Shown here: piece after piece, positions 15,781 to 36,527 of the stretch | Layout: each line of letters opens with the position of its first letter | Position numbering within the stretch: the first letter of the stretch is position 1 | Sequence record: MK327941.1 | Source of the DNA: Escherichia phage vB_EcoM_G37-3 | DNA: 64,000 bases | Reading direction: 5' to 3' (one strand) | The notes under the pieces: model-generated | Database searches by the model: none | What the model saw: only the letters and a program-made list of their open reading frames with translations | Told to the model about the DNA's origin: nothing | Position numbers and translations under genes: made by a program

Positions 15781-16180
15781 TTAAGCCAGTTGAGTGAGTT
15801 TATAAATTGTTTTAAAGCATAGAGCTTTGATATCGTCTAAAACACTCTGTAACGAGCTATCAACATCATTATAAATCTCACTAGCCATTTGCGTTAACTC
15901 TTGCAAATAGGCAATTTCGCTAATCTCCTTGCGGACGACCAACTTTGGCTGATAACGACCAGTGATCCCAATATTGGTTTCAGTGAAATTATCAACCAAT
16001 TCTTGCATTTCAAGATAGAACTCTTCTAGAGCCTTATGTTTTGCATAAGATCCAGGACCAGTTACCCCAAAATGCGCAGAATGCATATAAGTAACACTCA
16101 TCAGACATTCACCGATAAAGCGGTCAACTTTATTAGCCTTTCCCTCTTCGGACGTCTTTAGAAAATCACTGAATTTCATG
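15781..16180 (-). CDS. Hypothetical protein (about 133 aa)
   Basis: Probable ATG at MKFSDFLKTSEEGK with RBS GGAGAA; track start 16278. Confidence 0.45.
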
Positions 16181-16468
16181 TTCTCGATTCTCCATATTAT
16201 GCAACAGAACAAATTGTTGTGCGGCATATCCCCCCATAATAAAACACTGCCTAGAATCCATACATTTACTACGAGCATACATCTTCATAATATGGGCATG
16301 AAATTTCTGGCTGGTTTCAATGGAAGGAGATATTTTGTTTACATATACTATCATTGCGCCGTCGAAATAATCAGTAAAGTCACCAGTTGGATCATATTGA
16401 TCAGCACTGACACTTCCGACCGCAGTCAAGCATATTGCCGCTGTTAGAGTTTTACGAATAAATGACAT
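16166..16468 (-). CDS. Hypothetical secreted protein with N-terminal signal peptide
   Basis: MSFIRKTLTAAICLTAVGSVSA signal-like N-terminus; RBS GGGGGA; TATAAATA late-promoter motif upstream. Confidence 0.45.
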   Translation of the reverse strand: MSFIRKTLTAAICLTAVGSVSADQYDPTGDFTDYFDGAMIVYVNKISPSIETSQKFHAHIMKMYARSKCMDSRQCFIMGGYAAQQFVLLHNMENREHEIQ

Positions 16469-16476
16469 AAGTCATT

Positions 16477-16518
16477 CCCCCAGATTGAAAATATTCAGTT
16501 ATATTTATAATCTGGGGC
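16477..16518 (-). promoter_or_regulatory. T4 late-promoter motif TATAAATA inside an inverted repeat
   Basis: Minus-strand TATAAATA (plus 16502-16509) flanked by CCCCAGATT / AATCTGGGG arms. Confidence 0.45.
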
Positions 16519-21327: not shown

Positions 21328-21921
21328 TTAAACGTATTCAGCGACAACATTGTGTTTAAAATTACCACTTCTTTTTGGATTTGGATTTTTCAATCGACTA
21401 TGTATTAAATTTTTGTTATATCCGGTTGCTTTAGACGCTTCTCCAATACTTTGATAAACAACACCATCAACACGAATCGGACGAGACTTATTAAACAGTT
21501 TATTCAATCCGGTATCATATGCATGGTTTTGGTTTTCTTGTCTTGTTGCGATCTCAAGATTCCAAACACAATTACAAGATTTTACCCCACTTTTATGATT
21601 AATTTCAAGCCCTTCACAATCACCTATAAAGTGTTCAGCGACTAGTCTATGAATATAGCGATATTTCTTAGTTTCCCCGTCATGCAAGCATACATTATAA
21701 TAACCATCACCAGCGCGTTTAGGTCGGAGTAGTTTACCTTTAACACGTTTTATAGTAGGGAACTCACCAAATTGATTTCGCTGGATAAAAGGAATCTCTC
21801 GGTCAAGTGAACGGATTCGACCATAGTTAGATACTTGATAAAACCCCCCATAGCCCTTAATCTGCTTCCATATCTCGGGGATTTCAACACCATCAATAAC
21901 AACAAGTTTAAGTTCTTCCAT
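21328..21921 (-). CDS. HNH homing endonuclease (Mob-like)
   Basis: YQVSNYGRIRS (NUMOD4-like) and HRLVAEHFIGDCEGLEINHKSGVKSCNCVWNLE (HNH) motifs. Confidence 0.75.
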   Translation of the reverse strand: MEELKLVVIDGVEIPEIWKQIKGYGGFYQVSNYGRIRSLDREIPFIQRNQFGEFPTIKRVKGKLLRPKRAGDGYYNVCLHDGETKKYRYIHRLVAEHFIGDCEGLEINHKSGVKSCNCVWNLEIATRQENQNHAYDTGLNKLFNKSRPIRVDGVVYQSIGEASKATGYNKNLIHSRLKNPNPKRSGNFKHNVVAEYV

Positions 21922-22386: not shown

Positions 22387-22521
22387 AATTCACCTCTTAT
22401 AGATCAGGACGTTCGTCATTAATTTTACCAACCAAAACACCATAGAGTTTATCAGGTTGGATTTTACGATTCTTTTTAATTGTAGCACGAAATCGACGAG
22501 CTACGCTATCTTTATTTTTCA

Positions 22522-23013
22522 TTAGTTGATACCTAAGCCAATGAAAATAGGTTGGTCTTCTACACTACCCCTTCCAACACTAAATCGATTCAATTCTAAA
22601 AACTGCAATACGCTGTCAGTAAATCCGCGCATGGTAGTATCTAGGATAAAAATTGTTTTGTCAAGACTACGACCTCGCCATGTGATCGGATTCAGGAAAG
22701 TTCGGATCGACGTACAATCTACATTTGAAATATTTACATTTTCACCGCGACCGCGATCTCGGATCGTTTTGGCATGTTCCCGCGTCGTTGAAACGATAAA
22801 GACACTATAGCCTTTTCTCGTATAATGGTCATATAACTTGATTGTAGCGTCTGTATGCCCTGTCTGACGTCCTAAATTGATTGAGACAATGGAATCTAGG
22901 TCATCAGCAAAATTGCGTCGCTTACGACGTTCTATGATGCCATTTACGGCAGATACACACGCAGCATAAATCAAATCTTTACTTTCTAATTCTAAATCAA
23001 TGTCAATATTCAT
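22522..23013 (-). CDS. Hypothetical protein (163 aa)
   Basis: ORF with ATG and RBS; no recognised domain. Confidence 0.45.
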   Translation of the reverse strand: MNIDIDLELESKDLIYAACVSAVNGIIERRKRRNFADDLDSIVSINLGRQTGHTDATIKLYDHYTRKGYSVFIVSTTREHAKTIRDRGRGENVNISNVDCTSIRTFLNPITWRGRSLDKTIFILDTTMRGFTDSVLQFLELNRFSVGRGSVEDQPIFIGLGIN

Positions 23014-23021
23014 GGTAAAGT

Positions 23022-23056
23022 CTCCAGTGAACGGGGAGAGATCCTTAGATTGTCTC
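23022..23056. other. Stable GC-rich stem-loop downstream of endolysin gene
   Basis: Inverted repeat AACGGGGAGA...TCTCCCCGTT. Confidence 0.4.
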
Positions 23057-23075
23057 CCCGTTGATGGTTAATATT

Positions 23076-23465
23076 TTATTTTGGATCTGGGTATTTGCTG
23101 TGTGGTAGCTGAAAATGAACACCGTCTTTAAACGATACCCAATCCCCACCCCATTCAACAGGAACACCCAATTCTCGACCAGCTTGTTTAAATGCATCCG
23201 CGATCATGCGGTAGTATTTCATGTTCCATGTATCCTTATCTTTCGGATACGCTACAACATCAACCGCGAAACCGTGAAGATGACGAGATTTCATAGTCTT
23301 AGATTTACCTTCCGCAACATATTTCTTTTGCGTTTCTAGACTACGCACACCTTCCGTAATACCAAAATCGACCAGAGTCAGTTCTAACGCACGATGAACG
23401 ACTTTTACCAGATCAGGATGTACACCAACAAGCCGATCTTTGCTTCTTTGAGATAATTTAAACAT
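23076..23465 (-). CDS. M15-family L-alanyl-D-glutamate peptidase (T5 Lys-type endolysin)
   Basis: Aligns with phage T5 endolysin: KVVHRALELT, SRHLHGFAVDV, DAFKQAGRELG, GGDW, DGVHFQL (zinc-binding H/D residues). Confidence 0.75.
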   Translation of the reverse strand: MFKLSQRSKDRLVGVHPDLVKVVHRALELTLVDFGITEGVRSLETQKKYVAEGKSKTMKSRHLHGFAVDVVAYPKDKDTWNMKYYRMIADAFKQAGRELGVPVEWGGDWVSFKDGVHFQLPHSKYPDPK

Positions 23466-23493
23466 TATTCACCCCCTTTGTGAGTGATAATAT

Positions 23494-23685
23494 TTAGATT
23501 CCGGCGATCCTGCATATAGTTCTTGTATTAGCACCAATCAGGATCGCATTAACGACAACCATTCCCCAATCAACCCACTGATTATTATAAATGCTAAACC
23601 CGTTTGCAAGACCAAATACAAGCATTCCGGTACACATACTCAGAGCAATAATCAACATCACGGTAAAACCAAATGCAAATCTCAT
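23494..23685 (-). CDS. Small membrane protein (2 TM)
   Basis: Hydrophobic 63-aa ORF immediately upstream of endolysin. Confidence 0.4.
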   Translation of the reverse strand: MRFAFGFTVMLIIALSMCTGMLVFGLANGFSIYNNQWVDWGMVVVNAILIGANTRTICRIAGI

Positions 23686-23686
23686 A

Positions 23687-23953
23687 TTATTTTCCTTTTC
23701 TCTGTTTACGTTTATAAAAGTAATACATTACCTCATCGCGTCCGGTGATCCAACATGCTAGGGCGGTAAACAGGTTTACAATTCCCAACACACCTACTGA
23801 CGCGGCGCTGTCAACAGACATAGGAACAGTAAAGGCCATAGCTAACATAGCAACGCCACAAATGACATTAAGCACCATTATAATAAGACCGAAGAAAACC
23901 ATTGTCAATCCTCCGACACAAGAAAACCAACAATCACGCCAGTGATAAGACAT
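23687..23953 (-). CDS. Small membrane protein with basic C-terminal tail (holin-like features)
   Basis: Multiple hydrophobic helices then YKRKQRKGK tail. Confidence 0.4.
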   Translation of the reverse strand: MSYHWRDCWFSCVGGLTMVFFGLIIMVLNVICGVAMLAMAFTVPMSVDSAASVGVLGIVNLFTALACWITGRDEVMYYFYKRKQRKGK

Positions 23954-24096
23954 GATGCACCGCTAATCAGACAACCCGCGCCCATAGTTTCCCACCAGAT
24001 CAGAGAAGCGACAATAACACAGAATCCCCATACTACCGCAATCACAACATAGGCAAGGGTCGCCCAAAACATATATTTGTTCATAATAAATCCCAT
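23905..24096 (-). CDS. Small membrane protein
   Basis: Hydrophobic 63-aa ORF; start may be internal. Confidence 0.35.
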   Translation of the reverse strand: MGFIMNKYMFWATLAYVVIAVVWGFCVIVASLIWWETMGAGCLISGASCLITGVIVGFLVSED

Positions 24097-24269
24097 TCAC
24101 CAAACAAATAAGAAAAAAGCCATATCAACAGAAACGAGGCAATTGATCCGGCAAGCAAAATGATATTAGAGAATCCGCCGTCTATCCAGGCGACAAAACA
24201 GAATACGCCAGTATAGAAGCATAAACCCATTACAAAGCATACTATAAGCAACCATAGACAAAACTCCAT
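24081..24269 (-). CDS. Small membrane protein
   Basis: Hydrophobic 62-aa ORF with RBS GGAGGG. Confidence 0.35.
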   Translation of the reverse strand: MEFCLWLLIVCFVMGLCFYTGVFCFVAWIDGGFSNIILLAGSIASFLLIWLFSYLFGEWDLL

Positions 24270-24330
24270 AGAAAGCCCTCCAGCGAGATAAATTAGTGCG
24301 GGTAGTGGAATGTACTACCCGCTTTGTTAA

Positions 24331-24489
24331 TCAACGCAGAGCTTCTTCTAGCGCGATCCCAAACCATCCACAAACAACGCCCATACAGACAGCTACAAGA
24401 AGATTCATTCTCTCTTTAGGGATCATTGCAATCATAACAACAACCATACAGAAAGCCATTACCATTGAAGTTAACATTTGTTCAACCAT
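24331..24489 (-). CDS. Small membrane protein (about 52 aa) missed by ORF track
   Basis: ATG 24487-24489 with RBS AAGGTG; MVEQMLTSMVMAFCMVVVMIAMIPKE... Confidence 0.3.
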   Translation of the reverse strand: MVEQMLTSMVMAFCMVVVMIAMIPKERMNLLVAVCMGVVCGWFGIALEEALR

Positions 24490-24491
24490 TA

Positions 24492-24830
24492 TCACACCTT
24501 TAAAGTCATAGACGCATAAACATTAATGCCAGGCCAGTTAGGATCGCAATTATACTCAACATCCCACAAATAAAGCGGTTTAGATGTATCAGCCAAGTTT
24601 TTAAAATCTTCTACCCACATTTCAAGGCTATATGATGGATAAACTAGGCTATCATATCCGCCGTAACGTTGGCCTACTGGTCGGTCAGTAAAAACTACCT
24701 CAAGATCCGGTAATTCTTTTTCAAGGATAACCGCCAGCGCATAAATCAGACGGTCTTCCTTGTTACGCTGCCGAAGGACCGTTGTCAATTGGTTTTTCTG
24801 GTTCACTAGCAAGCACCTACACATTTTCAC
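24492..24830 (-). CDS. Hypothetical protein (112 aa)
   Basis: ORF in gene chain. Confidence 0.45.
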   Translation of the reverse strand: MKMCRCLLVNQKNQLTTVLRQRNKEDRLIYALAVILEKELPDLEVVFTDRPVGQRYGGYDSLVYPSYSLEMWVEDFKNLADTSKPLYLWDVEYNCDPNWPGINVYASMTLKV

Positions 24831-25083
24831 AGAATGAAATTTTCACAGACACAATTTTACCATAAGTGAAGAATGAATATACATTATCGAGATATTCAAC
24901 GTCACCTACAATCACATCAAACTGCGGATCAGCCACTGCCGCAACATATTCTACCAGTTCATCAAGAGAATGCAACTTAATTTCATCAATTCGGCTGTAT
25001 TTGGTTGCATCTTTGATTTTAAAACCACGTTCTTTCAGCTTATCAATCAGAATTTCACGCGGAGTTTCAAACAGTTTGCTCAT
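24817..25083 (-). CDS. Hypothetical protein (88 aa)
   Basis: ATG with RBS GAGGAT. Confidence 0.45.
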   Translation of the reverse strand: MSKLFETPREILIDKLKERGFKIKDATKYSRIDEIKLHSLDELVEYVAAVADPQFDVIVGDVEYLDNVYSFFTYGKIVSVKISFCENV

Positions 25084-25104
25084 AATATAATCCTCACATT
25101 AAAT

Positions 25105-25302
25105 CTAAAATTTGTTAACGACGAATTGCATAATTAGACTAATCACAAACATTGCAAACCAAGTATAAATGCAACAGATAAAAGCTACATACAATTCAAT
25201 CTGGTCAGAGAATACACCGGGTAAAAGCATTAGCAAAATAACAACAGTAAAGACGCTAGCGATACCCGCAACAAAACCAATATCATTTTTACTAATCGTC
25301 AT
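25105..25302 (-). CDS. Small membrane protein
   Basis: Hydrophobic ORF; ATG just inside TTG track start. Confidence 0.4.
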   Translation of the reverse strand: MTISKNDIGFVAGIASVFTVVILLMLLPGVFSDQIELYVAFICCIYTWFAMFVISLIMQFVVNKF

Positions 25303-25303
25303 C

Positions 25304-25447
25304 AAGTCACCGTTTTGTAAAGAAACACAATAAAATCCAAGACAAGAAAGACAGTGTAAATGATCATCGTCAAGACAGTAAACACTGTCAAATTTTCATC
25401 GTTAGTTAATTCATAGTCGCCCATCCATACAATCACAAGATATAGCA
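25304..25447 (-). CDS. Small membrane protein (about 48 aa), coordinates approximate
   Basis: MLYLVIVWMGDYELTNDENLTVFTVLTMIIYTVFLVLDFIVFLYKTVT; stop overlaps next start (TGATG). Confidence 0.25.
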
Positions 25448-25502
25448 TTGAAAGAATGGAAGCACCTACGAAGTTAAAAAAAACATATTCTTGAGCGTCA
25501 TA

Positions 25503-25685
25503 TTAACAACCATCGCGGCTTAAGTCAACAGCAATTGCATACAGCATAATGAATATGCTAGCAGATCCGAGAATCAATGCACCATCACATTTTGAAACTC
25601 GCTCATCAAAATGTAACATTATCCATCCGAGGATGTTAAAGGCGCAGACCGCGCCTATGTTCGCTAACCAATTAATCTTTTTCAT
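25503..25685 (-). CDS. Small membrane protein
   Basis: Hydrophobic 60-aa ORF. Confidence 0.4.
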   Translation of the reverse strand: MKKINWLANIGAVCAFNILGWIMLHFDERVSKCDGALILGSASIFIMLYAIAVDLSRDGC

Positions 25686-26052: not shown

Positions 26053-26081
26053 CGATGGGTGTATTATGCTATACACCCTCT
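26053..26081 (-). promoter_or_regulatory. Early sigma70-type promoter (PeSL-like cassette)
   Basis: Minus strand TTGACA, 17-nt spacer, CATAAT, conserved leader ACCCATCGAAACGAAACACGAAC. Confidence 0.5.
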
Positions 26082-26099
26082 CGCGTGTCAACAACTTTT

Positions 26100-26288
26100 T
26101 TAGTCTTTTTTCATAATTTCTAGAGCAGTTTCTACAGCACCTTTCCAACCTTCCCACATAATGGACATAGTAAGGAAGTTAAAGCACCCGCAGGAATCAA
26201 CCTTTTTAGAGATAAACCATTCTACAAACGCTTCGCTCATACCATGCTCTTTAGCGGATTCGCGTAATTGTTCAATTTGGTCTTCCAT
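26100..26288 (-). CDS. Hypothetical protein (62 aa)
   Basis: ORF in gene chain. Confidence 0.45.
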   Translation of the reverse strand: MEDQIEQLRESAKEHGMSEAFVEWFISKKVDSCGCFNFLTMSIMWEGWKGAVETALEIMKKD

Positions 26289-26310
26289 AGTATCACCTCA
26301 ACACTTAACG

Positions 26311-26505
26311 TTATTCAAACTCAAACGGTCTATTCAACCTATTGTAAAAGTACATATAACAAGCAAAATTATGCTTTGGCTGTACCGTATCAGATAGACA
26401 CGCTTTTACAGCCTCGCGGTCCGATGGGTCTACACCCTCAGCTTTAAGTAATGCTAAAATCTGGTTATAGCGTACTCTTAGTTGTACTAATGGTTTATCC
26501 CCCAT
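26311..26505 (-). CDS. Hypothetical protein (64 aa)
   Basis: ORF in gene chain. Confidence 0.4.
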   Translation of the reverse strand: MGDKPLVQLRVRYNQILALLKAEGVDPSDREAVKACLSDTVQPKHNFACYMYFYNRLNRPFEFE

Positions 26506-26514
26506 ATTACCCCC

Positions 26515-26742
26515 TTATAGTTGATCAGCAATGTATGCGGTGCATTTGCGGAGTTTAGCCATAGCACCACCTTTCATGTCGCTTGCGCCTACAATGTTCA
26601 TGATCTCTAAGCGATCAGCCGGATTCAGTCTAGTAGCCAAGATCTGGTTAGCCAGTTCCATTTTACCCATCTGCGGTTCCATCTCAAACATTTCACGCTC
26701 AAAGTCGATAATTTCTTTTGCTGCGTCTTTAAAGTTAATCAT
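26515..26742 (-). CDS. Hypothetical protein (75 aa)
   Basis: ATG with RBS GGAGGACCAAA and PeSL-type promoter. Confidence 0.45.
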   Translation of the reverse strand: MINFKDAAKEIIDFEREMFEMEPQMGKMELANQILATRLNPADRLEIMNIVGASDMKGGAMAKLRKCTAYIADQL

Positions 26743-26771
26743 TTTGGTCCTCCCGTTTCGTTGATGGTTGT

Positions 26772-26800
26772 ATTGTAGGGGAGTTATCCTCCCCTGTCAA
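26772..26800 (-). promoter_or_regulatory. Early promoter with spacer palindrome (PeSL-like)
   Basis: Minus strand TTGACA, spacer GGGGAGGATAACTCCCC, TACAAT. Confidence 0.6.
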
Positions 26801-26808
26801 CACTTTTA

Positions 26809-26994
26809 TCAGAAATATGCAATATAGTTTGCCAGTCCTACAGAGTCATCATTCGGCATTGCTTTTACCGCCAGTTCAAACCCTGCTTCAACTTTCTGTT
26901 TAGCGGATTCTTCGTTATAACCCCAGATGACCAGAATAGCTACTACGTTTTCTTTGCTTACTGCTTTCAGTGCTTTAGTGATGCGACGTGCCAT
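26809..26994 (-). CDS. Hypothetical protein (61 aa)
   Basis: ATG with RBS GGAGAATCAAATT and PeSL-type promoter. Confidence 0.45.
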   Translation of the reverse strand: MARRITKALKAVSKENVVAILVIWGYNEESAKQKVEAGFELAVKAMPNDDSVGLANYIAYF

Positions 26995-27040
26995 AATTTG
27001 ATTCTCCGTTTAAGAAAGTGTGTTTCGTTTCGATGGGTGT

Positions 27041-27069
27041 ATTATGCTATAGGCGTGATCTGGTGTCAA
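27041..27069 (-). promoter_or_regulatory. Early sigma70-type promoter (PeSL-like cassette)
   Basis: Minus strand TTGACA, 17-nt spacer, CATAAT, conserved leader. Confidence 0.5.
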
Positions 27070-27094
27070 CAACTTTTTTAAAAAATTTTAGGCA

Positions 27095-27125
27095 ATAAAA
27101 AAGCCACTCCGAAGAGTGGCTTATA
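27095..27125 (-). terminator. Rho-independent terminator
   Basis: Minus strand hairpin GCCACTC-TTCG-GAGTGGC followed by TTTTTT. Confidence 0.6.
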
Positions 27126-27271: not shown

Positions 27272-27490
27272 TTATTTATATCGCTTTCTCTCGCGACGTT
27301 TTTGATCTTCTTCCTTGATAGAGTTAAACGCATCAAAAAGACACATGACACTAATAATAAACATAACCGTATTTTCTACGATATCCCACGGCTTCGCATC
27401 GGTACAGATTCCCCAAACTGTAAGAAATGCAAATAGTGCAGAAGAGATCACAAGCATGATACTTGCTAAGATATAAAAAGTCATTTTCAT
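27272..27490 (-). CDS. Small membrane protein
   Basis: Hydrophobic ORF with basic C-terminus KEEDQKRRERKRYK. Confidence 0.4.
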   Translation of the reverse strand: MKMTFYILASIMLVISSALFAFLTVWGICTDAKPWDIVENTVMFIISVMCLFDAFNSIKEEDQKRRERKRYK

Positions 27491-27681
27491 GGTTTTACCT
27501 CAATTCTTCGATATTCATCACACATCCACGCAGTAAGCAAGAATCCCAACACATAAGCAACAAAATACGTTAATGCTTCTTCTGGTTTCGTGCTATGTAT
27601 CATCAGTAAACCAGCGAGAACGGTCTTAACAATTGCATTTAAAATAATTAACCACGCAAATAATTTCATCGTTTGCCCCAT
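27487..27681 (-). CDS. Small membrane protein
   Basis: Hydrophobic 64-aa ORF. Confidence 0.4.
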   Translation of the reverse strand: MGQTMKLFAWLIILNAIVKTVLAGLLMIHSTKPEEALTYFVAYVLGFLLTAWMCDEYRRIEVKP

Positions 27682-27905
27682 TTCGGTCGAGTCTTTTCAA
27701 ACTTATACATTCCGTAACAATCTCGAATCATCCACGTAACAAGAGCACCAGTCAACACAGACAATACACAGAAGAAGTAAAACGGTCCGGTTGCATTATC
27801 AACATGAGCAAGCCAGGTAAAGAAAACACATGCAAGGAATGTAAAGAACATCATAAAACACAAGAAAGCAAAATATTTTATGCTACTCATAGCGCCACCA
27901 TACAA
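27666..27905 (-). CDS. Small membrane protein
   Basis: Hydrophobic 79-aa ORF. Confidence 0.4.
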   Translation of the reverse strand: MYGGAMSSIKYFAFLCFMMFFTFLACVFFTWLAHVDNATGPFYFFCVLSVLTGALVTWMIRDCYGMYKFEKTRPKWGKR

Positions 27906-27993
27906 CAGATCATAAGAAAACCCAACGCAATAAGAATTGCATCAAATTTAGTGAACTCAGATCCACCTATCAACATCATTCGTTCCTGTTCAT

Positions 27994-28236
27994 TCATAGA
28001 TCACAGAGCCATCTTAAAGCACCACATAAAGCGATCAAAAGACTAGGTATAAACGAGACTAAAACAAGACTACAAAAATCATCTAAGGTAACGCCGGAAT
28101 AGCTACCTACTGTAACAACACCGATCATCAGACACAGAAAGAAAACAAATGCAATCAGAAACAAAGTATTGCTAAACAGTTTAGTGATCATTAGACACCC
28201 CACGACGATCAATTTCAAAAACTTTTTTACCATCAA
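27994..28236 (-). CDS. Small membrane protein
   Basis: Hydrophobic 80-aa ORF. Confidence 0.4.
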   Translation of the reverse strand: MMVKKFLKLIVVGCLMITKLFSNTLFLIAFVFFLCLMIGVVTVGSYSGVTLDDFCSLVLVSFIPSLLIALCGALRWLCDL

Positions 28237-34727: not shown

Positions 34728-36527
34728 ATGCTAATGTTTAATAACTCCGTTAAATGGTTTACCGGAATTGTAGAAAACAGGGAAGACCCATTAATGCTGG
34801 GTCGTGTTCAGGTTAGGATTCATGGTATACATCCCTCGCTATCCGCACACGGTGACATTCAAGGTCTTCCAACCGAAGATCTATTATGGATTACGCCAGT
34901 ACAAGATATTACAAGCGCGGCGATCTCCGGTATAGGTCAAAGCCCTACTGGTATTGTTGAAGGTTCAATGGTATTTGGTTTGGCTTTAGATGAACGTTAT
35001 TTAAACTGCGTTATTCTTGGTACTATTGCCGGACAATATACAGAGAAACCACTCACTACAGAGGGTTTTTGTGACCCTTCTGGTGCATATCCTCGTTATA
35101 TTGGTAATGATGTTAATATTCTTGCTCGTGGCGGTATTAACCCAGAAACCGGACAAACAACAAAACCTGATAGTGTCTATATTCGAGATGAAAACACTGG
35201 AGTTGCAGTAAATCCAGACGACGAGCCATTAGACCAAATTCCGGTTGATGATAATCCTGATTTTACAATAGAAAAAATGCTGCGGGGCGATGAGGGATAT
35301 CGCGAGAAATGGTATCTTGATTCAGAAGGATATCCGACAATAGGCATCGGGCATTTGATCATTTATAAGAAAACCAGTGATCTTGGTATTATCAATAATG
35401 AACTTTCTAAGCTGGTAGGGCGTGAAGTTACAAACGGAAGACTTACCGCCGAAGAAGTTAGTAAAGTATTTGCCGACGATATAGAAAAGACTCGTCGTGA
35501 TATGCGCAAACATCCACGAATTGCACCTGTCTATAATAAATGTAATGCCTCTCGTCGCATGGCATTAGAAAATATGGCGTTTCAAATGGGTGTTGGTGGA
35601 TTGGGTAAATTTAAGAATAGTCTTGCTGCGATGTTAGCGGAAGAATGGAAACAAGCCTATGATGGATTACGTCAATCGGTATGGGCTAACCAAACTCCAG
35701 GACGCTCCAGCCGTGTTTCTAAAATTATTTTAACTGGTAACTTAGAATCATATGGCGTAATTGCTCCAAAGAAAGAGGAATCAATTTCTGATGATCCGCG
35801 AGAACGTTTGAGAAATGCCCGTATTGCTGCCTATAAGACGCAGAGAGCAGAAGAAGACCCAGAAGCACCGTTTACCCCACAAGACACACGAATCATGTTT
35901 AAAGAGCCTAAGAGTTCGTATTCTGCAAGGTATCCATATAACCATGTGTACGAGTCAGAGAGCGGTCATATTATCGAGATTGATGATACTCCTTCTCATG
36001 AGCGATATCATCGTAAACATCCTTCTGGTACATTTGAAGAAACCAGACCGGACGGAACGAGGGTAGAAAAGATTGAAGGCGATGATTATCTGATCGTTAA
36101 ACAAGGCCGGAAAGTAAACGTCAAGGGTAATTTGCAAGTTGTTGTTGAAGGTGACGCGCAAGTTTATTATATGGGTAATGTGATGCAAACCGTTGATGGT
36201 AACGTCACTGAATTTATTCGTGGCAATGTTAATCAGACCGTTGAAGGTACTGCTAACATGCATGTTGTTGGTGATGTTATCGCACAGCTTGACGCTAATT
36301 TGACGGCTAACGTCAAGGGTAATGCTGAATTAATGATCGAGGGTAACACTACCGAAACAATTAAAGGTAACTATGATTTAACCGTTGAGGGTAATTTTAA
36401 TATGACAGTCAATGGCACTAAATCAGATCAGGTTAATGGTGACTGGTCCCGTAATTGTGGTGCAAGCGTTAAAGATATTGCATCTGGTACAGTTAAAATT
36501 GATGGTAGCCGTATTGATCTTGGGTGA
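34728..36527 (+). CDS. 5: Baseplate hub + tail lysozyme gp5 (cell-puncturing device)
   Basis: OB-fold N-terminus, lysozyme domain GYPTIGIGHLI..., C-terminal beta-helix VxGxxxxx repeats. Confidence 0.95.
   Translation: MLMFNNSVKWFTGIVENREDPLMLGRVQVRIHGIHPSLSAHGDIQGLPTEDLLWITPVQDITSAAISGIGQSPTGIVEGSMVFGLALDERYLNCVILGTIAGQYTEKPLTTEGFCDPSGAYPRYIGNDVNILARGGINPETGQTTKPDSVYIRDENTGVAVNPDDEPLDQIPVDDNPDFTIEKMLRGDEGYREKWYLDSEGYPTIGIGHLIIYKKTSDLGIINNELSKLVGREVTNGRLTAEEVSKVFADDIEKTRRDMRKHPRIAPVYNKCNASRRMALENMAFQMGVGGLGKFKNSLAAMLAEEWKQAYDGLRQSVWANQTPGRSSRVSKIILTGNLESYGVIAPKKEESISDDPRERLRNARIAAYKTQRAEEDPEAPFTPQDTRIMFKEPKSSYSARYPYNHVYESESGHIIEIDDTPSHERYHRKHPSGTFEETRPDGTRVEKIEGDDYLIVKQGRKVNVKGNLQVVVEGDAQVYYMGNVMQTVDGNVTEFIRGNVNQTVEGTANMHVVGDVIAQLDANLTANVKGNAELMIEGNTTETIKGNYDLTVEGNFNMTVNGTKSDQVNGDWSRNCGASVKDIASGTVKIDGSRIDLG

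What the first reader, a model, noticed from the sequence alone, without database searches (positions are those of the whole stretch)
23076..24489. T5-type M15 endolysin preceded by four or five small membrane-protein genes (candidate lysis cassette in the early region)
ORF 23076-23465 aligns along its length with the phage T5 L-alanyl-D-glutamate endopeptidase, including the zinc-ligand motifs SRHLHGFAVD and DGVHF. It is not a T4 e-type muramidase. Immediately upstream in the same transcript direction are consecutive ORFs of 50-90 aa with two or three predicted TM helices, one with a basic tail (YKRKQRKGK). This resembles a holin or antiholin plus endolysin arrangement.
Basis: partly seen in the sequence, partly recalled or inferred. 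Interest (0 to 1): 0.55.

Follow-up and report, generated by a model that had tools for sequence, protein, structure and literature searches.

The report
RB49-type endolysin beside small membrane genes
This is the already characterised cell-wall-cutting enzyme (EndoRB49) of an RB49-like T4-type coliphage; the five tiny membrane-protein genes in front of it are real but uncharacterised early genes, and they are probably not its holin, because these phages keep the standard T4 holin, antiholin and spanins elsewhere.

Summary
On the minus strand, 23076-23465 encodes a 129-aa M15 L-alanyl-D-glutamate peptidase. Five ORFs of 52-71 aa with two hydrophobic segments each (one clear for s103) lie directly upstream. 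The window is a Krischvirus (RB49/Phi1/JSE group). The enzyme is about 98% identical to EndoRB49, which has solved structures and published biochemistry, so it is already known.

The "holin/antiholin cassette" reading is not supported:
- The genus carries T4 holin T, the antiholin RI (in this window, 16166-16468) and T4-type spanins.
- The small ORFs match no holin family, and s104 has no relatives at all outside the genus.
- They lie in a predicted early transcription unit.
- They are one of three clusters of similar small membrane ORFans in the same hyperplastic region.
- One of them (s106) is deleted or frameshifted in some isolates.

They are nevertheless genuine genes under purifying selection; s104 is nearly invariant.

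One point seems unreported. The endolysin sits at the position of T4 gene e. Its ribosome-binding site and AUG are locked in the most stable start-site hairpin of 109 candidate starts in the window. The 5' arm of that hairpin carries a late-promoter variant (CTAAATA). This is the same control design as T4 lysozyme.

The parts
23076..23465 (-). Endolysin gene: M15 L-alanyl-D-glutamate peptidase, the orthologue of EndoRB49. It is soluble, with no signal peptide or SAR segment.
   Evidence: Pfam PF13539; PHROG 465; PDB 8q2g/23ri E about 5e-84, ChiX 5opz 2.9e-37, T5 2mxz 1.7e-19; no hydrophobic segment.
23459..23496 (-). RNA hairpin that pairs the endolysin Shine-Dalgarno sequence (GGGGGUGA) and AUG with an upstream arm (UAAAUAUUAUCACUC).
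   Evidence: MFE -12.3 kcal/mol, z -5.2, 0 of 200 shuffles fold as well. Most structured of 109 SD+ATG candidate starts in the window. Invariant in 9 isolates. Retained and stronger (-18.2 kcal/mol) in the divergent clade. Same design as T4 gene e (PMC3014915).
23491..23498 (-). Late-promoter-like octamer TCTAAATA (CTAAATA variant) inside the 5' arm of the hairpin. It overlaps the s103 stop codon. The predicted late transcript start is about 23485.
   Evidence: CTAAATA lies 18-35 nt upstream of the starts of gp37, gp26, uvsY.-2, t and this gene: 5 of 11 occurrences, against a 5% background. The -13 to -6 geometry and the Aeh1 CTAAATA consensus come from PMC1524935.
23494..23685 (-). s103 (Phi1 ORF103 orthologue), 63 aa. 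One clear hydrophobic segment in my scans; two TM helices in the published RB49 prediction. Its stop codon lies in the hairpin's 5' arm.
   Evidence: PHROG 15016, unknown function.
23687..23902 (-). s104 (ORF104), 71 aa, two TM segments plus a basic C-terminal tail (GRDEVMYYFYKRKQRKGK). It is the most constrained of the five.
   Evidence: pN/pS 0.07. C-terminal half invariant across clades. No relatives outside the genus in 5.8e9 (word-indexed search) or 1.84e9 (full profile search) proteins.
23905..24084 (-). s105 (ORF105), 59 aa, two TM segments, acidic C-terminus. Its start overlaps the s106 stop (ATGA).
   Evidence: PHROG 16151.
24081..24269 (-). s106 (ORF106), 62 aa, two TM segments. Dispensable in some isolates.
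   Evidence: pN/pS 0.49; 11-nt frameshifting deletion in PHB13 and 146-nt deletion in ELT4.
24298..24322 (.). G+C-rich stem-loop between s107 and s106, a possible attenuator and recombination hotspot.
   Evidence: -16 kcal/mol, z -5.0. Listed as terminator-like on both strands. Annotated as a terminator in G2494. The stem is conserved and the loop is reverse-complemented between genomes. The ELT4 deletion starts next to it and the JK32 duplication includes it.
24331..24489 (-). s107 (ORF107), 52 aa, two TM segments.
   Evidence: PHROG 16035.
25105..25685 (-). Second cluster of small hydrophobic ORFs (ORF110-112 orthologues) in the same transcription unit.
27275..28191 (-). Third cluster of small hydrophobic ORFs (ORF118-122 orthologues) in the same hyperplastic region.
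26063..26091 (-). Nearest strong sigma-70-type early promoter upstream of the block (TTGACA-17-CATAAT). It corresponds to the published RB49 promoter Pe:57746.
22522..23013 (-). vs.8 homologue directly downstream of the endolysin. It places the endolysin at the T4 gene e locus.
   Evidence: BLASTP against T4 vs.8, E 2e-6; synteny 57B ... endolysin, vs.8, vs.6, regB, vs, tk, rI.
16166..16468 (-). rI antiholin gene of the T4 lysis system, with an exact late promoter TATAAATA at 16502-16509.
   Evidence: PF24205, E 3e-23; 96% identical to Phi1 RI; promoter.

Best explanation
The window comes from an RB49-like T4-type coliphage (genus Krischvirus).

The enzyme. ORF 23076-23465 is the phage's only dedicated endolysin, the known zinc L-alanyl-D-glutamate peptidase EndoRB49. 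It occupies the chromosomal position that T4 gives to its lysozyme gene e. It is therefore a non-orthologous replacement at a conserved locus. The enzyme is soluble, so it must wait in the cytoplasm for large membrane holes. These are expected to come from the T4-type holin T. T would be timed by the antiholin RI, and the T4-type spanins PseT.3/PseT.2 would then break the outer membrane.

Its expression (inferred). Expression appears to follow T4 e logic. Early transcripts reading through from sigma-70 promoters about 2.6 kb upstream carry a hairpin that buries the Shine-Dalgarno sequence and the AUG. A late promoter variant (TCTAAATA) inside the hairpin's 5' arm would start transcripts at about 23485. 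These lack that arm and can be translated.

The small ORFs. The five ORFs upstream are genuine, genus-restricted genes for small inner-membrane proteins (two hydrophobic segments each; one clear for s103). They are expressed early. They belong to a hyperplastic region in which 13 of 22 ORFs are of this kind. Their most likely business is early remodelling or protection of the host envelope, for example superinfection exclusion, counter-defence or host takeover. They are unlikely to form the lysis hole.

Shown versus inferred. Shown here: enzyme identity, synteny, presence of T, RI and spanins in the genus, purifying selection, the hairpin, and the motif enrichment. Inferred: promoter use, translational repression, expression timing, and any function of the small proteins.
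For: Identity of the phage and the enzyme:
- 97-98% nucleotide identity to 58 Krischvirus genomes.
- The enzyme is about 98% identical to solved EndoRB49. Its activity is published (PMC8140593 and PMC10487532).

Locus:
- Gene order is 3, 1, 57A, 57B... endolysin, vs.8, vs.6, regB, vs.1, vs, tk, rI. In T4 the order is 57B ... e, ipIII, ipII, denV, vs.8.
- There is no T4-e homologue except the gp5 domain.

Other lysis genes:
- Holin T, PF11031, 4.5e-61; RI, PF24205, 3e-23.
- Spanins annotated in Phi1 and assigned to the T4 family.

The hairpin:
- -12.3 kcal/mol, z -5.2.
- Rank 1 of 109 candidate start sites.
- Kept in a clade whose coding flanks have diverged. Two 3'-arm substitutions there turn a C.A mismatch into C-G and extend the helix.

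The late promoter variant:
- CTAAATA is enriched 9-fold upstream of starts, including those of the late genes gp37 and gp26 and of t.

The T4 precedent:
-, and PMC3014915. That review set RB49 and phi-1 aside as having 'no apparent gene e'.

The small ORFs:
- Present in 58 of 58 genomes and in divergent metagenomic relatives.
- pN/pS 0.07-0.49.
- No family hits, no paralogy and no remote relatives.
- Early promoters lie upstream and no late promoter is predicted.
- Three clusters of similar ORFs exist.
- T4 also has membrane ORFs (e.2-e.4) upstream of e.
Against: - No transcript or protein data were available, so timing rests on promoter motifs alone.
- The published HMM scan of RB49 found no late promoter at the endolysin, and C at -12 was called rare outside Aeh1.
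- The s103 stop codon lies in the hairpin's 5' arm. Ribosomes finishing s103 could open the hairpin and couple endolysin synthesis to s103. That would link the two functionally.
- s104 has the gross build of a class II holin: 71 aa, two TM segments, a basic cytoplasmic tail.
- The tight packing s106-s105-s104-s103-endolysin is conserved in every genome seen.
- No RIII homologue was found, so the lysis-inhibition circuit may have an unidentified component.
- Holin T and the spanins were checked in Phi1, not in the phage of this window, whose sequence ends before those loci.
Confidence: 0.7

Rival explanations
1. One or more of the small membrane proteins is the holin (s104 is the best candidate), and another is its antiholin. 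With the M15 enzyme they would form a self-contained lysis cassette that works independently of, or instead of, T4-type T.
For: - Immediate adjacency and conserved order in all genomes.
- s104 is 71 aa with two TM segments and a highly basic C-terminal tail.
- s104 is under very strong constraint, pN/pS 0.07.
- The s103 stop codon is embedded in the endolysin TIR hairpin.
Against: - A full-length T holin, RI and spanins are conserved in the genus.
- There is no holin-family similarity. The best holin hits are E 0.18 and 0.96, scattered among generic membrane noise.
- The genes lie downstream of strong early promoters with no late promoter of their own. An early-made holin would be suicidal unless restrained.
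- TMD1 of s104 is strongly hydrophobic (KD about 2.7), not SAR-like. A pinholin could not release a soluble endolysin in any case.
- The upstream start that would give a dual-start (antiholin) form of s104 is not conserved.
- RB43-type phages and the siphovirus Sasha use related M15 enzymes without these genes.
- s106 is lost in some isolates.
Confidence: 0.08
2. Accessory lysis-timing model. T remains the holin. One of the small proteins (s104 or s103) would modulate T or RI, for instance by standing in for the missing cytoplasmic antiholin RIII, or would tether or chaperone the endolysin at the membrane.
For: - No RIII homologue by tblastn in about 80% of a Krischvirus genome, including the syntenic 30.3-31 interval.
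- The TMD2 and cytoplasmic tail of s104 are invariant while its TMD1 and periplasmic loop vary.
- Possible translational coupling of s103 to the endolysin.
Against: - The evidence is circumstantial only.
- RIII is small and fast-evolving, so it could be missed by BLAST.
- The small ORFs are one of three similar clusters spread over 5 kb, which argues against a function specific to the endolysin.
- The predicted late promoter lies downstream of s103, so late endolysin mRNA would not carry these genes.
Confidence: 0.1
3. Regulatory rival. The hairpin is not bypassed by a late promoter. It serves translational coupling instead: ribosomes terminating at the s103 stop (23494-23496, inside the 5' arm) melt the stem. 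The endolysin would then be made whenever s103 is translated, including early.
For: - Geometry of the stop codon and the stem.
- No late promoter was called here by the published RB49 scan.
- The octamer matches TATAAATA at only 7 of 8 positions.
Against: - In T4, the nudE stop lies just before the analogous hairpin, yet early e mRNA is reported to be poorly translated (PMC3014915).
- CTAAATA is strongly enriched before late genes of this genus.
- It sits at the right distance to remove the arm.
Confidence: 0.25
4. The small ORFs are non-coding or decaying filler between regulatory elements of a hyperplastic region.
For: - They are very short, hydrophobic, genus-restricted ORFans.
- s106 is broken in PHB13 and ELT4, and JK32 has a duplication.
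Against: - Four of the five are intact in every genome examined, including a clade only 80-87% identical in s104.
- Variable sites concentrate at third codon positions, with pN/pS 0.07-0.25 for s103, s104, s105 and s107.
- s104 and s106 have a clear SD (GGAGG), the others a weaker purine-rich one, and the start/stop spacing is tight.
Confidence: 0.03

Closest known systems
EndoRB49, the L-alanoyl-D-glutamate peptidase of phage RB49 (PDB 8q2g, 23ri; Mikoulinskaia et al. 2018, as cited in PMC10487532)
   Same: Same protein. Full-length alignment with 3-4 substitutions, the same Zn ligands, the same conserved W109, and the same genomic locus.
   Different: The window allele has L31 where all relatives have P31. 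It carries the DGVHFQL variant of the C-terminal motif, shared with Makalu_001, rather than DGPHLQL.
EndoT5 (phage T5 L-alanyl-D-glutamate peptidase, PDB 2mxz)
   Same: Same M15 fold family and catalytic motifs; aligns over residues 2-120.
   Different: A distant relative only: T5-like phages are about 38% identical, and the bit score is 73 against 131 for ChiX. EndoT5 is Ca2+-activated through a loop that EndoRB49 lacks (PMC10487532).
Serratia marcescens ChiX (PDB 5opz)
   Same: The closest solved non-phage relative (E 2.9e-37). It is an L-Ala-D-Glu endopeptidase.
   Different: It is a bacterial secretion accessory enzyme. From my own knowledge, it works with a holin-like protein, ChiW. No ChiW-like gene is present here.
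Translational control of T4 lysozyme gene e (McPheeters et al. 1986; reviewed in PMC3014915)
   Same: Same locus. A hairpin of similar strength buries the SD and AUG, and a late-promoter motif lies in the 5' arm, so late transcripts lack the arm.
   Different: The regulated gene is a non-homologous enzyme. There is one variant promoter (TCTAAATA) instead of two canonical TATAAATA. The upstream ORF's stop codon lies inside the arm. No experimental mapping exists.
ORFan genes of T4-type hyperplastic regions with PeSL cassettes (Arbiol et al. 2010, PMC2839356; Nolan et al. 2006, PMC1524935)
   Same: Small, genus-specific, early-promoter-driven genes in the 57B-vs.8 hyperplastic region. The RB49 orthologues were already listed as predicted two-TM proteins.
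   Different: ORF103-107 form a tightly packed block without individual promoters. The one stem-loop in the block (24298-24322) has no recognisable promoter attached.
Class II holins and pinholins (for example phage 21 S68/S71)
   Same: s104 is of similar size and has two TM segments and a charged C-terminal tail.
   Different: There is no sequence relation, no conserved dual start, a strongly hydrophobic TMD1, and an early rather than late genomic setting. The partner endolysin has no SAR signal.
T4 early membrane proteins Imm and Sp (superinfection exclusion), and T4 e.2-e.4
   Same: Small early membrane proteins of T-even phages. T4 e.2, e.3 and e.4 are hydrophobic ORFs upstream of e at the equivalent locus.
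   Different: No detectable homology to any of them: no Pfam or PHROG links. The function of e.2-e.4 is also unknown.

Membership tests
Peptidase M15 (L-alanyl-D-glutamate endolysins, EndoT5/EndoRB49 type) | Significant match to the family profile | tested here: met
   PF13539, 46.2 bits against a cut-off of 25; PHROG 465, E 5.5e-67.
Peptidase M15 (L-alanyl-D-glutamate endolysins, EndoT5/EndoRB49 type) | Zn-binding His/Asp/His and the catalytic Asp in the SxHxxGxAxD ... DxxH motifs | tested here: met
   S60, H62, G65, A67, D69 and D114-G-V-H117 read from the translation; aligned to the solved homologues.
Peptidase M15 (L-alanyl-D-glutamate endolysins, EndoT5/EndoRB49 type) | Cleaves the L-Ala-D-Glu bond of peptidoglycan | not testable with these tools
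   Published for the about 98% identical EndoRB49 (PMC8140593, PMC10487532).
Holin (any described family) | Sequence membership in a holin family | tested here: not met
   No Pfam, PHROG or NCBIfam holin hit for any of the five ORFs; the best is E 0.18, 12 bits against a cut-off of 27. The s104 profile finds nothing outside the genus.
Holin (any described family) | Small membrane protein with at least one TMD and a charged cytoplasmic C-terminus | tested here: inconclusive
   Met by s104 only. s105, s106 and s107 end in short acidic or neutral tails. The feature is not specific to holins.
Holin (any described family) | Late expression together with the endolysin | tested here: not met
   No late-promoter motif upstream of any small ORF. 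The nearest promoters are early-type at 26091, 26800 and 27069. The only late-type motif lies downstream of s103. This rests on motifs only.
Holin (any described family) | Forms lethal membrane lesions that release endolysin | not testable with these tools
   Needs induction and complementation assays.
T4-type lysis system (T, RI, RIII, PseT.3/PseT.2, endolysin) | Holin T present | tested here: met
   Phi1 t (154900-155556) matches PF11031 at E 4.5e-61. This is in a relative that is 97% identical, not in the window itself.
T4-type lysis system (T, RI, RIII, PseT.3/PseT.2, endolysin) | Antiholin RI present | tested here: met
   Window 16166-16468(-), PF24205, E 3e-23.
T4-type lysis system (T, RI, RIII, PseT.3/PseT.2, endolysin) | Separated two-component spanin | tested here: inconclusive
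   [quoted passage not shown] RB49, Phi1 and JSE are listed in the T4 spanin families (PMC6139136). Pfam has no model that hit them.
T4-type lysis system (T, RI, RIII, PseT.3/PseT.2, endolysin) | GH24 lysozyme E as the endolysin | tested here: not met
   Only the gp5 domain matches T4 E. It is replaced by the M15 peptidase.
T4-type lysis system (T, RI, RIII, PseT.3/PseT.2, endolysin) | RIII present | tested here: not met
   No tblastn hit better than E 0.66 in the window plus Phi1 47.8-62.8 and 100-164 kb. ORF215 at the syntenic site gives E 0.036 only. About 20% of the genome was not searched.
T4 gene-e-type translational control | Stable hairpin sequestering the SD and start codon in read-through transcripts | tested here: met
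T4 gene-e-type translational control | Late promoter within the 5' arm, so that late transcripts lack it | tested here: inconclusive
   TCTAAATA at 23491-23498 puts +1 at about 23485. The variant is enriched before late genes, but the published scan did not call it.
T4 gene-e-type translational control | Early mRNA untranslated and late mRNA translated | not testable with these tools
   Needs 5'-end mapping and reporter fusions.
PeSL cassette (promoter-early stem-loop) | Stem-loop joined to a consensus sigma-70 promoter and an AT-rich upstream tract | tested here: not met
   The stem-loop at 24298-24322 has no hexamer pair at workable spacing. Canonical examples lie further upstream, at 26063-27122.

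The most novel reading that the evidence does not exclude
The near-invariant s104, possibly together with s103, whose stop codon sits in the endolysin's translational operator, could be a new kind of accessory lysis-timing factor. In this reading it is a membrane-anchored partner of the T holin/RI circuit. It would replace the cytoplasmic antiholin RIII, which Krischvirus appears to lack. Alternatively it could be a dedicated partner acquired along with the M15 endolysin. Separately, retention of the T4-e hairpin and late-promoter switch on a non-orthologous enzyme would show that the regulatory slot, rather than the gene, is the conserved unit.
Probability: 0.1. Interest if true: 0.6.

Novelty: already known. 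Interest (0 to 1): 0.27.

Why it matters
The enzyme is already a studied endolysin, so finding it again adds nothing.

Two modest points have value.
- The work corrects a tempting misannotation. Small membrane ORFs next to an endolysin need not be holins in T4-type phages, where the lysis genes are scattered.
- The non-orthologous M15 endolysin seems to have inherited, or re-evolved, the exact control logic of T4 lysozyme: an RBS-masking hairpin with a late promoter in its 5' arm. The standard review of T4 post-transcriptional control did not examine RB49-like phages because they 'lack gene e'.

If 5'-end mapping confirms this, it is a tidy example of regulatory architecture surviving an enzyme swap. 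It would also add CTAAATA as a working late-promoter variant in coliphages.

The 13 small membrane ORFans of this region remain an untouched pool of candidate early envelope effectors.

Tried and rejected
1. Homology of the small ORFs to anything known. Pfam at E up to 10, PHROGs, NCBIfam and PADLOC gave only generic membrane noise.
2. Remote relatives. A word-indexed search of 5.8e9 proteins for s104 and s103, and a full HMM profile search of 1.84e9 representatives for s104, found Krischvirus-like sequences only.
3. Paralogy among the five ORFs, and with the upstream small ORFs. hhalign probabilities were below 3% and BLASTP E-values were at least 0.03. Tandem duplication is not supported.
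4. Co-transfer of a holin with the endolysin. The holin and the two-TM protein flanking the 62%-identical Sasha endolysin show no similarity to s103 or s104. Certrevirus POP15, the Enterobacter fragment and RB43-like phages have soluble neighbours.
5. A suspected link between P0015 and the 5382-bp Enterobacter phage record. This was a coincidence of contig length.
6. The dual-start (antiholin) idea for the 88-aa form of s104. Rejected, because the upstream ATG is not conserved and has no SD.
7. The stem-loop at 24298-24322 as a PeSL. No promoter is attached.
8. The 156-aa ORF downstream of the RB43-type endolysin as a vs.8 homologue. BLASTP did not confirm it.
9. A whole-genome check in the unannotated record LF73P4 failed, because those loci were not exported to the script sandbox. 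Phi1 pieces were used instead.
10. The Desplats 2002 RB49 paper (PMC135041) is not held.
11. Structure prediction was not used. A two-helix hairpin model would not discriminate between the hypotheses.
Full report
**What the window is.** Megablast of 22500-25500 finds 58 phage genomes at 90-99% identity. All are RB49-like T4-type coliphages of the genus Krischvirus (RB49, Phi1, JSE, GEC-3S, Sf20 and others). All the genes of the finding are on the minus strand.

**The endolysin.**
- ORF 23076-23465 (129 aa) matches Pfam Peptidase_M15_4 (E 6.8e-12) and PHROG 465 'endolysin' (E 5.5e-67).
- Against solved structures it is nearly identical to two EndoRB49 entries (8q2g and 23ri, E about 5e-84).
- More distantly it matches Serratia ChiX (5opz, 2.9e-37) and the T5 enzyme (2mxz, 1.7e-19).
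So is W109, the Trp studied in EndoRB49 (PMC10487532).
- The protein has no hydrophobic segment, so it is a soluble cytoplasmic endolysin.
- EndoRB49 has published enzymology and NMR work (PMC8140593, PMC10487532). This half of the finding is correct and already known.

**Where it sits.**
- The Phi1 annotation gives the order 3, 1, 57A, 57B, about 22 small ORFs including dmd and 55.3, ORF102 (the endolysin), vs.8, vs.6, nrdC.11, regB, vs.1, vs, tk.4, tk, rI.
- T4 has 57B ... e.8-e.1, e, ipIII, ipII, denV, vs.8, vs.7, vs.6 ... regB.
- The window's 163-aa ORF downstream of the endolysin is homologous to T4 vs.8 (E 2e-6).
- The M15 gene therefore occupies the positional slot of T4 gene e.
- T4 lysozyme itself matches only the gp5 lysozyme domain (window 35268-35753, 43% identity). 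It matches nothing else in the window or in the Phi1 pieces I could search. The annotation of the remaining Phi1 segments shows no e.
- The M15 enzyme is thus the phage's only dedicated endolysin, a non-orthologous replacement at a conserved locus.

**The rest of the lysis machinery.**
- Phi1 encodes a 218-aa protein at 154.9 kb that matches Phage_holin_T at E 4.5e-61.
- The window itself holds the antiholin gene rI (16166-16468, PF24205, E 3e-23; 96% identical to Phi1 RI). An exact late promoter TATAAATA precedes it.
[quoted passage not shown] RB49, Phi1 and JSE are placed in the T4 i-spanin and o-spanin families by Kongari et al. (PMC6139136).
- I found no RIII homologue in about 80% of a Krischvirus genome, including the syntenic 30.3-31 interval.
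- A soluble endolysin needs a large-hole holin, and T is the obvious provider.

**The small ORFs are real genes.**
- With the starts used by most annotators they are s107 (24331-24489, 52 aa), s106 (24081-24269, 62 aa), s105 (23905-24084, 59 aa), s104 (23687-23902, 71 aa) and s103 (23494-23685, 63 aa).
- My hydropathy scans find two hydrophobic segments in s104-s107 and one clear plus one weaker in s103. TM predictions published in 2006 for the RB49 orthologues give two helices for ORF103, 104, 106 and 107; ORF105 is not listed (PMC1524935 Additional file 2).
Its ATG has no SD, overlaps s105, and is not conserved.
- s106, s105, s104 and s103 are packed with overlaps or gaps of -4, +2 and +1 nt.
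- The block is present in all 58 genomes. It also occurs in divergent metagenomic relatives whose s104 is only 80-87% identical, always followed by the M15 gene, vs.8 and vs.6.
- In a nine-genome alignment, variable sites concentrate at third codon positions. pN/pS is 0.25 (s107), 0.49 (s106), 0.22 (s105), 0.07 (s104) and 0.23 (s103). For comparison it is 0.25 for the endolysin and 0.02-0.06 for two soluble neighbours.
- s106 carries an 11-nt frameshifting deletion in PHB13 and is mostly deleted in ELT4, so it is dispensable.
- TMD2 and the cytoplasmic tail of s104 (GIVNLFTALACWITGRDEVMYYFYKRKQRKGK) are invariant across both clades, while its TMD1 and loop vary.

**Why they are probably not holins.**
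- None matches any holin or other family in Pfam, PHROGs, NCBIfam or PADLOC. Each sits in its own small PHROG of unknown function.
- A profile of s104 searched against 1.84 billion representatives finds only itself. s103 is likewise confined to the genus.
- The five are not detectably related to one another.
- They are not linked to M15 endolysins elsewhere. RB43-type phages have soluble ORFs upstream of their M15 gene. The siphovirus Sasha, whose endolysin is 62% identical, has its own one-TMD holin, a two-TMD protein and spanins, none similar to s103 or s104. Certrevirus POP15 has soluble neighbours.
- They are not special to the endolysin's neighbourhood. Thirteen of the 22 ORFs between 57B and the endolysin are small hydrophobic proteins, in three clusters: window 27275-28191, 25108-25685 and 23497-24489.
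- T4 also has hydrophobic ORFs (e.2, e.3, e.4) upstream of e, and no lysis role is known for them.
- The region is one of the hyperplastic regions described for RB49 and Phi1, rich in ORFans and in promoter/stem-loop cassettes (PMC2839356).
- The nearest upstream promoters are strong sigma-70-type early promoters at 26091, 26800 and 27069. These coincide with the published RB49 early promoters Pe:57746, 58430 and 58699.
- No late promoter is predicted in front of any small ORF. A holin made from the first minutes of infection would be self-defeating.

**How the endolysin itself seems to be controlled (inferred).**
- The 28-nt spacer between s103 and the endolysin, with a few flanking bases, folds into a hairpin (23459-23496). 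Its 3' arm contains the SD (GGGGGUGA) and the AUG.
- The MFE is -12.3 kcal/mol, with z -5.2 and 0 of 200 shuffles folding as well.
- Of 109 SD+ATG candidate starts in the window, this is the most structured initiation region.
- The sequence is invariant in nine isolates.
- In the divergent clade, where the flanking codons have changed, the structure is kept and strengthened to -18.2 kcal/mol. Two substitutions in endolysin codons 3-4 convert a C.A mismatch to C-G and extend pairing with the unchanged 5' arm.
- The 5' arm contains TCTAAATA (23491-23498), a 7-of-8 match to the T4 late promoter. With the promoter spanning -13 to -6 (PMC1524935), transcription would start at about 23485. Only four bases of the arm would remain, and the residual structure is -2.4 kcal/mol.
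- T4 gene e, at the equivalent locus, has the same design: a -13.3 kcal/mol hairpin over SD and AUG, with TATAAATA in the 5' arm and in the loop. Early read-through mRNA is poorly translated and late transcripts lack the arm (PMC3014915).
- That review listed RB49 and phi-1 among phages 'with no apparent gene e' and did not analyse them.
- The weak point is the C at -12. The published HMM scan of RB49 did not call a late promoter here and described C at -12 as rare outside Aeh1, whose consensus is CTAAATA.
- I therefore counted the motif in 128 kb of Krischvirus DNA. CTAAATA occurs 11 times. Five of these lie 18-35 nt upstream of an SD+ATG: before gp37, gp26, uvsY.-2, the holin gene t and the endolysin.
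- The canonical ATAAATA scores 17 of 27. GTAAATA scores 1 of 7, TTAAATA 1 of 12, and random AT-rich 7-mers 5%.
- CTAAATA therefore behaves like a usable late-promoter variant in this genus, and it precedes both t and the endolysin gene.
- An alternative remains open. The s103 stop codon (23494-23496) lies inside the 5' arm, so terminating ribosomes could open the stem and couple endolysin translation to s103.

**Verdict.**
- The identification of the enzyme is right, but the enzyme is already known (EndoRB49).
- The cassette interpretation is not supported. The phage keeps the scattered T4 lysis system with only the endolysin swapped. The upstream membrane ORFs are best read as early, genus-specific hyperplastic-region ORFans. 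They probably act on the host envelope, for example in exclusion, counter-defence or takeover.
- That last assignment is an inference from timing, location and analogy, not from any direct evidence.
- The one possibly new item is the T4-e-like translational switch on a non-orthologous endolysin, together with the CTAAATA late-promoter variant.
- Interest is low to moderate.

Noticed in passing
window 23491-23498(-); L003 13602-13608(+), 16860-16866(+); L008 6243-6249(-), 4730-4736(-): CTAAATA has C at -12, like the Aeromonas phage Aeh1 late consensus. It precedes gp37, the holin gene t, gp26, uvsY.-2 and the endolysin in Krischvirus. The published RB49 late-promoter list (17 sites) may therefore be incomplete.
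   Followed up: partly
window 23109-23375(-): This endolysin allele has Leu31 where all 12 compared relatives have Pro31. The 3' end of the gene is mosaic across genomes, with three variants: DGVHFQL, DGPHLQL and a JSE/JK32/metagenome type, VICGVDW...DGPHMELDKKVYPDPV.
   Followed up: partly
L011 3071-3646 (JSE) and L015 2988-3563 (JK32), between the endolysin and vs.8: JSE and JK32 carry an extra HNH_3+AP2 homing-endonuclease-like gene directly downstream of the endolysin. The same two genomes carry the divergent endolysin C-terminus (the L018-L020 metagenome contigs share it without an extra gene), which may reflect co-conversion during homing.
   Followed up: partly
window 21328-21921(-): A NUMOD4+HNH_3 homing endonuclease gene lies between vs.6 and nrdC.11. 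It is absent from Phi1 at this site but present there in metagenomic relatives L020 and L021. The neighbouring vs.6 (GrcA-like glycyl-radical protein) is only 82% identical to Phi1, against 92-100% for the surrounding genes.
   Followed up: partly
window 24815-24817(-), within ORF 24817-25083: The ORF109 orthologue has a premature TAG in this window (GAG in all eight other genomes). This shortens it from 106 to 88 aa and removes its overlap with ORF108.
   Followed up: no
window 24298-24322: The G+C-rich stem is conserved, but its loop occurs in either orientation (reverse complement) in different genomes. The 146-nt ELT4 deletion starts next to it, and a 266-nt tandem duplication in JK32 includes it. 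This looks like a recombination hotspot. The JK32 duplication could also be an assembly artefact.
   Followed up: partly
window 23880-23908(-): A near-consensus sigma-70 promoter (TTGACA-17-TATTAT) lies across the start of s104. The first about 90 nt of s104 have no substitutions at all in the nine isolates, synonymous sites included. It could drive an s103+endolysin transcript. It was not in the published RB49 promoter list.
   Followed up: no
window 23680-23760(-): The 3' third of s104 and the first codons of s103 are identical at the nucleotide level even in the divergent clade, whose s104 5' half is only about 75-80% identical. The cause could be an extra RNA- or DNA-level constraint, or recent recombination.
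   Followed up: no
window 25105-25685(-) and 27275-28191(-): Two further clusters of small hydrophobic ORFs (Phi1 ORF110-112 and ORF118-122 orthologues) lie in the same hyperplastic region. Thirteen of the 22 ORFs between 57B and the endolysin are of this type. The ORF111 orthologue appears to be N-terminally shortened in this window.
   Followed up: partly
L008 26086-26333 (Phi1, between 30.3 and 31); whole genus: No homologue of the T4 lysis-inhibition accessory protein RIII was detected, although T and RI are conserved. ORF215 at the syntenic site is unrelated by BLASTP (E 0.036).
   Followed up: partly
L024 2945-3000 (Cronobacter phage leE, RB43-like): Upstream of the RB43-type M15 endolysin there is a CGTAAATA motif followed by an 8-bp hairpin (AATACCCT...AGGGTATT). 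This hairpin does not cover the SD. It is a different arrangement from the Krischvirus and T4 operators.
   Followed up: no
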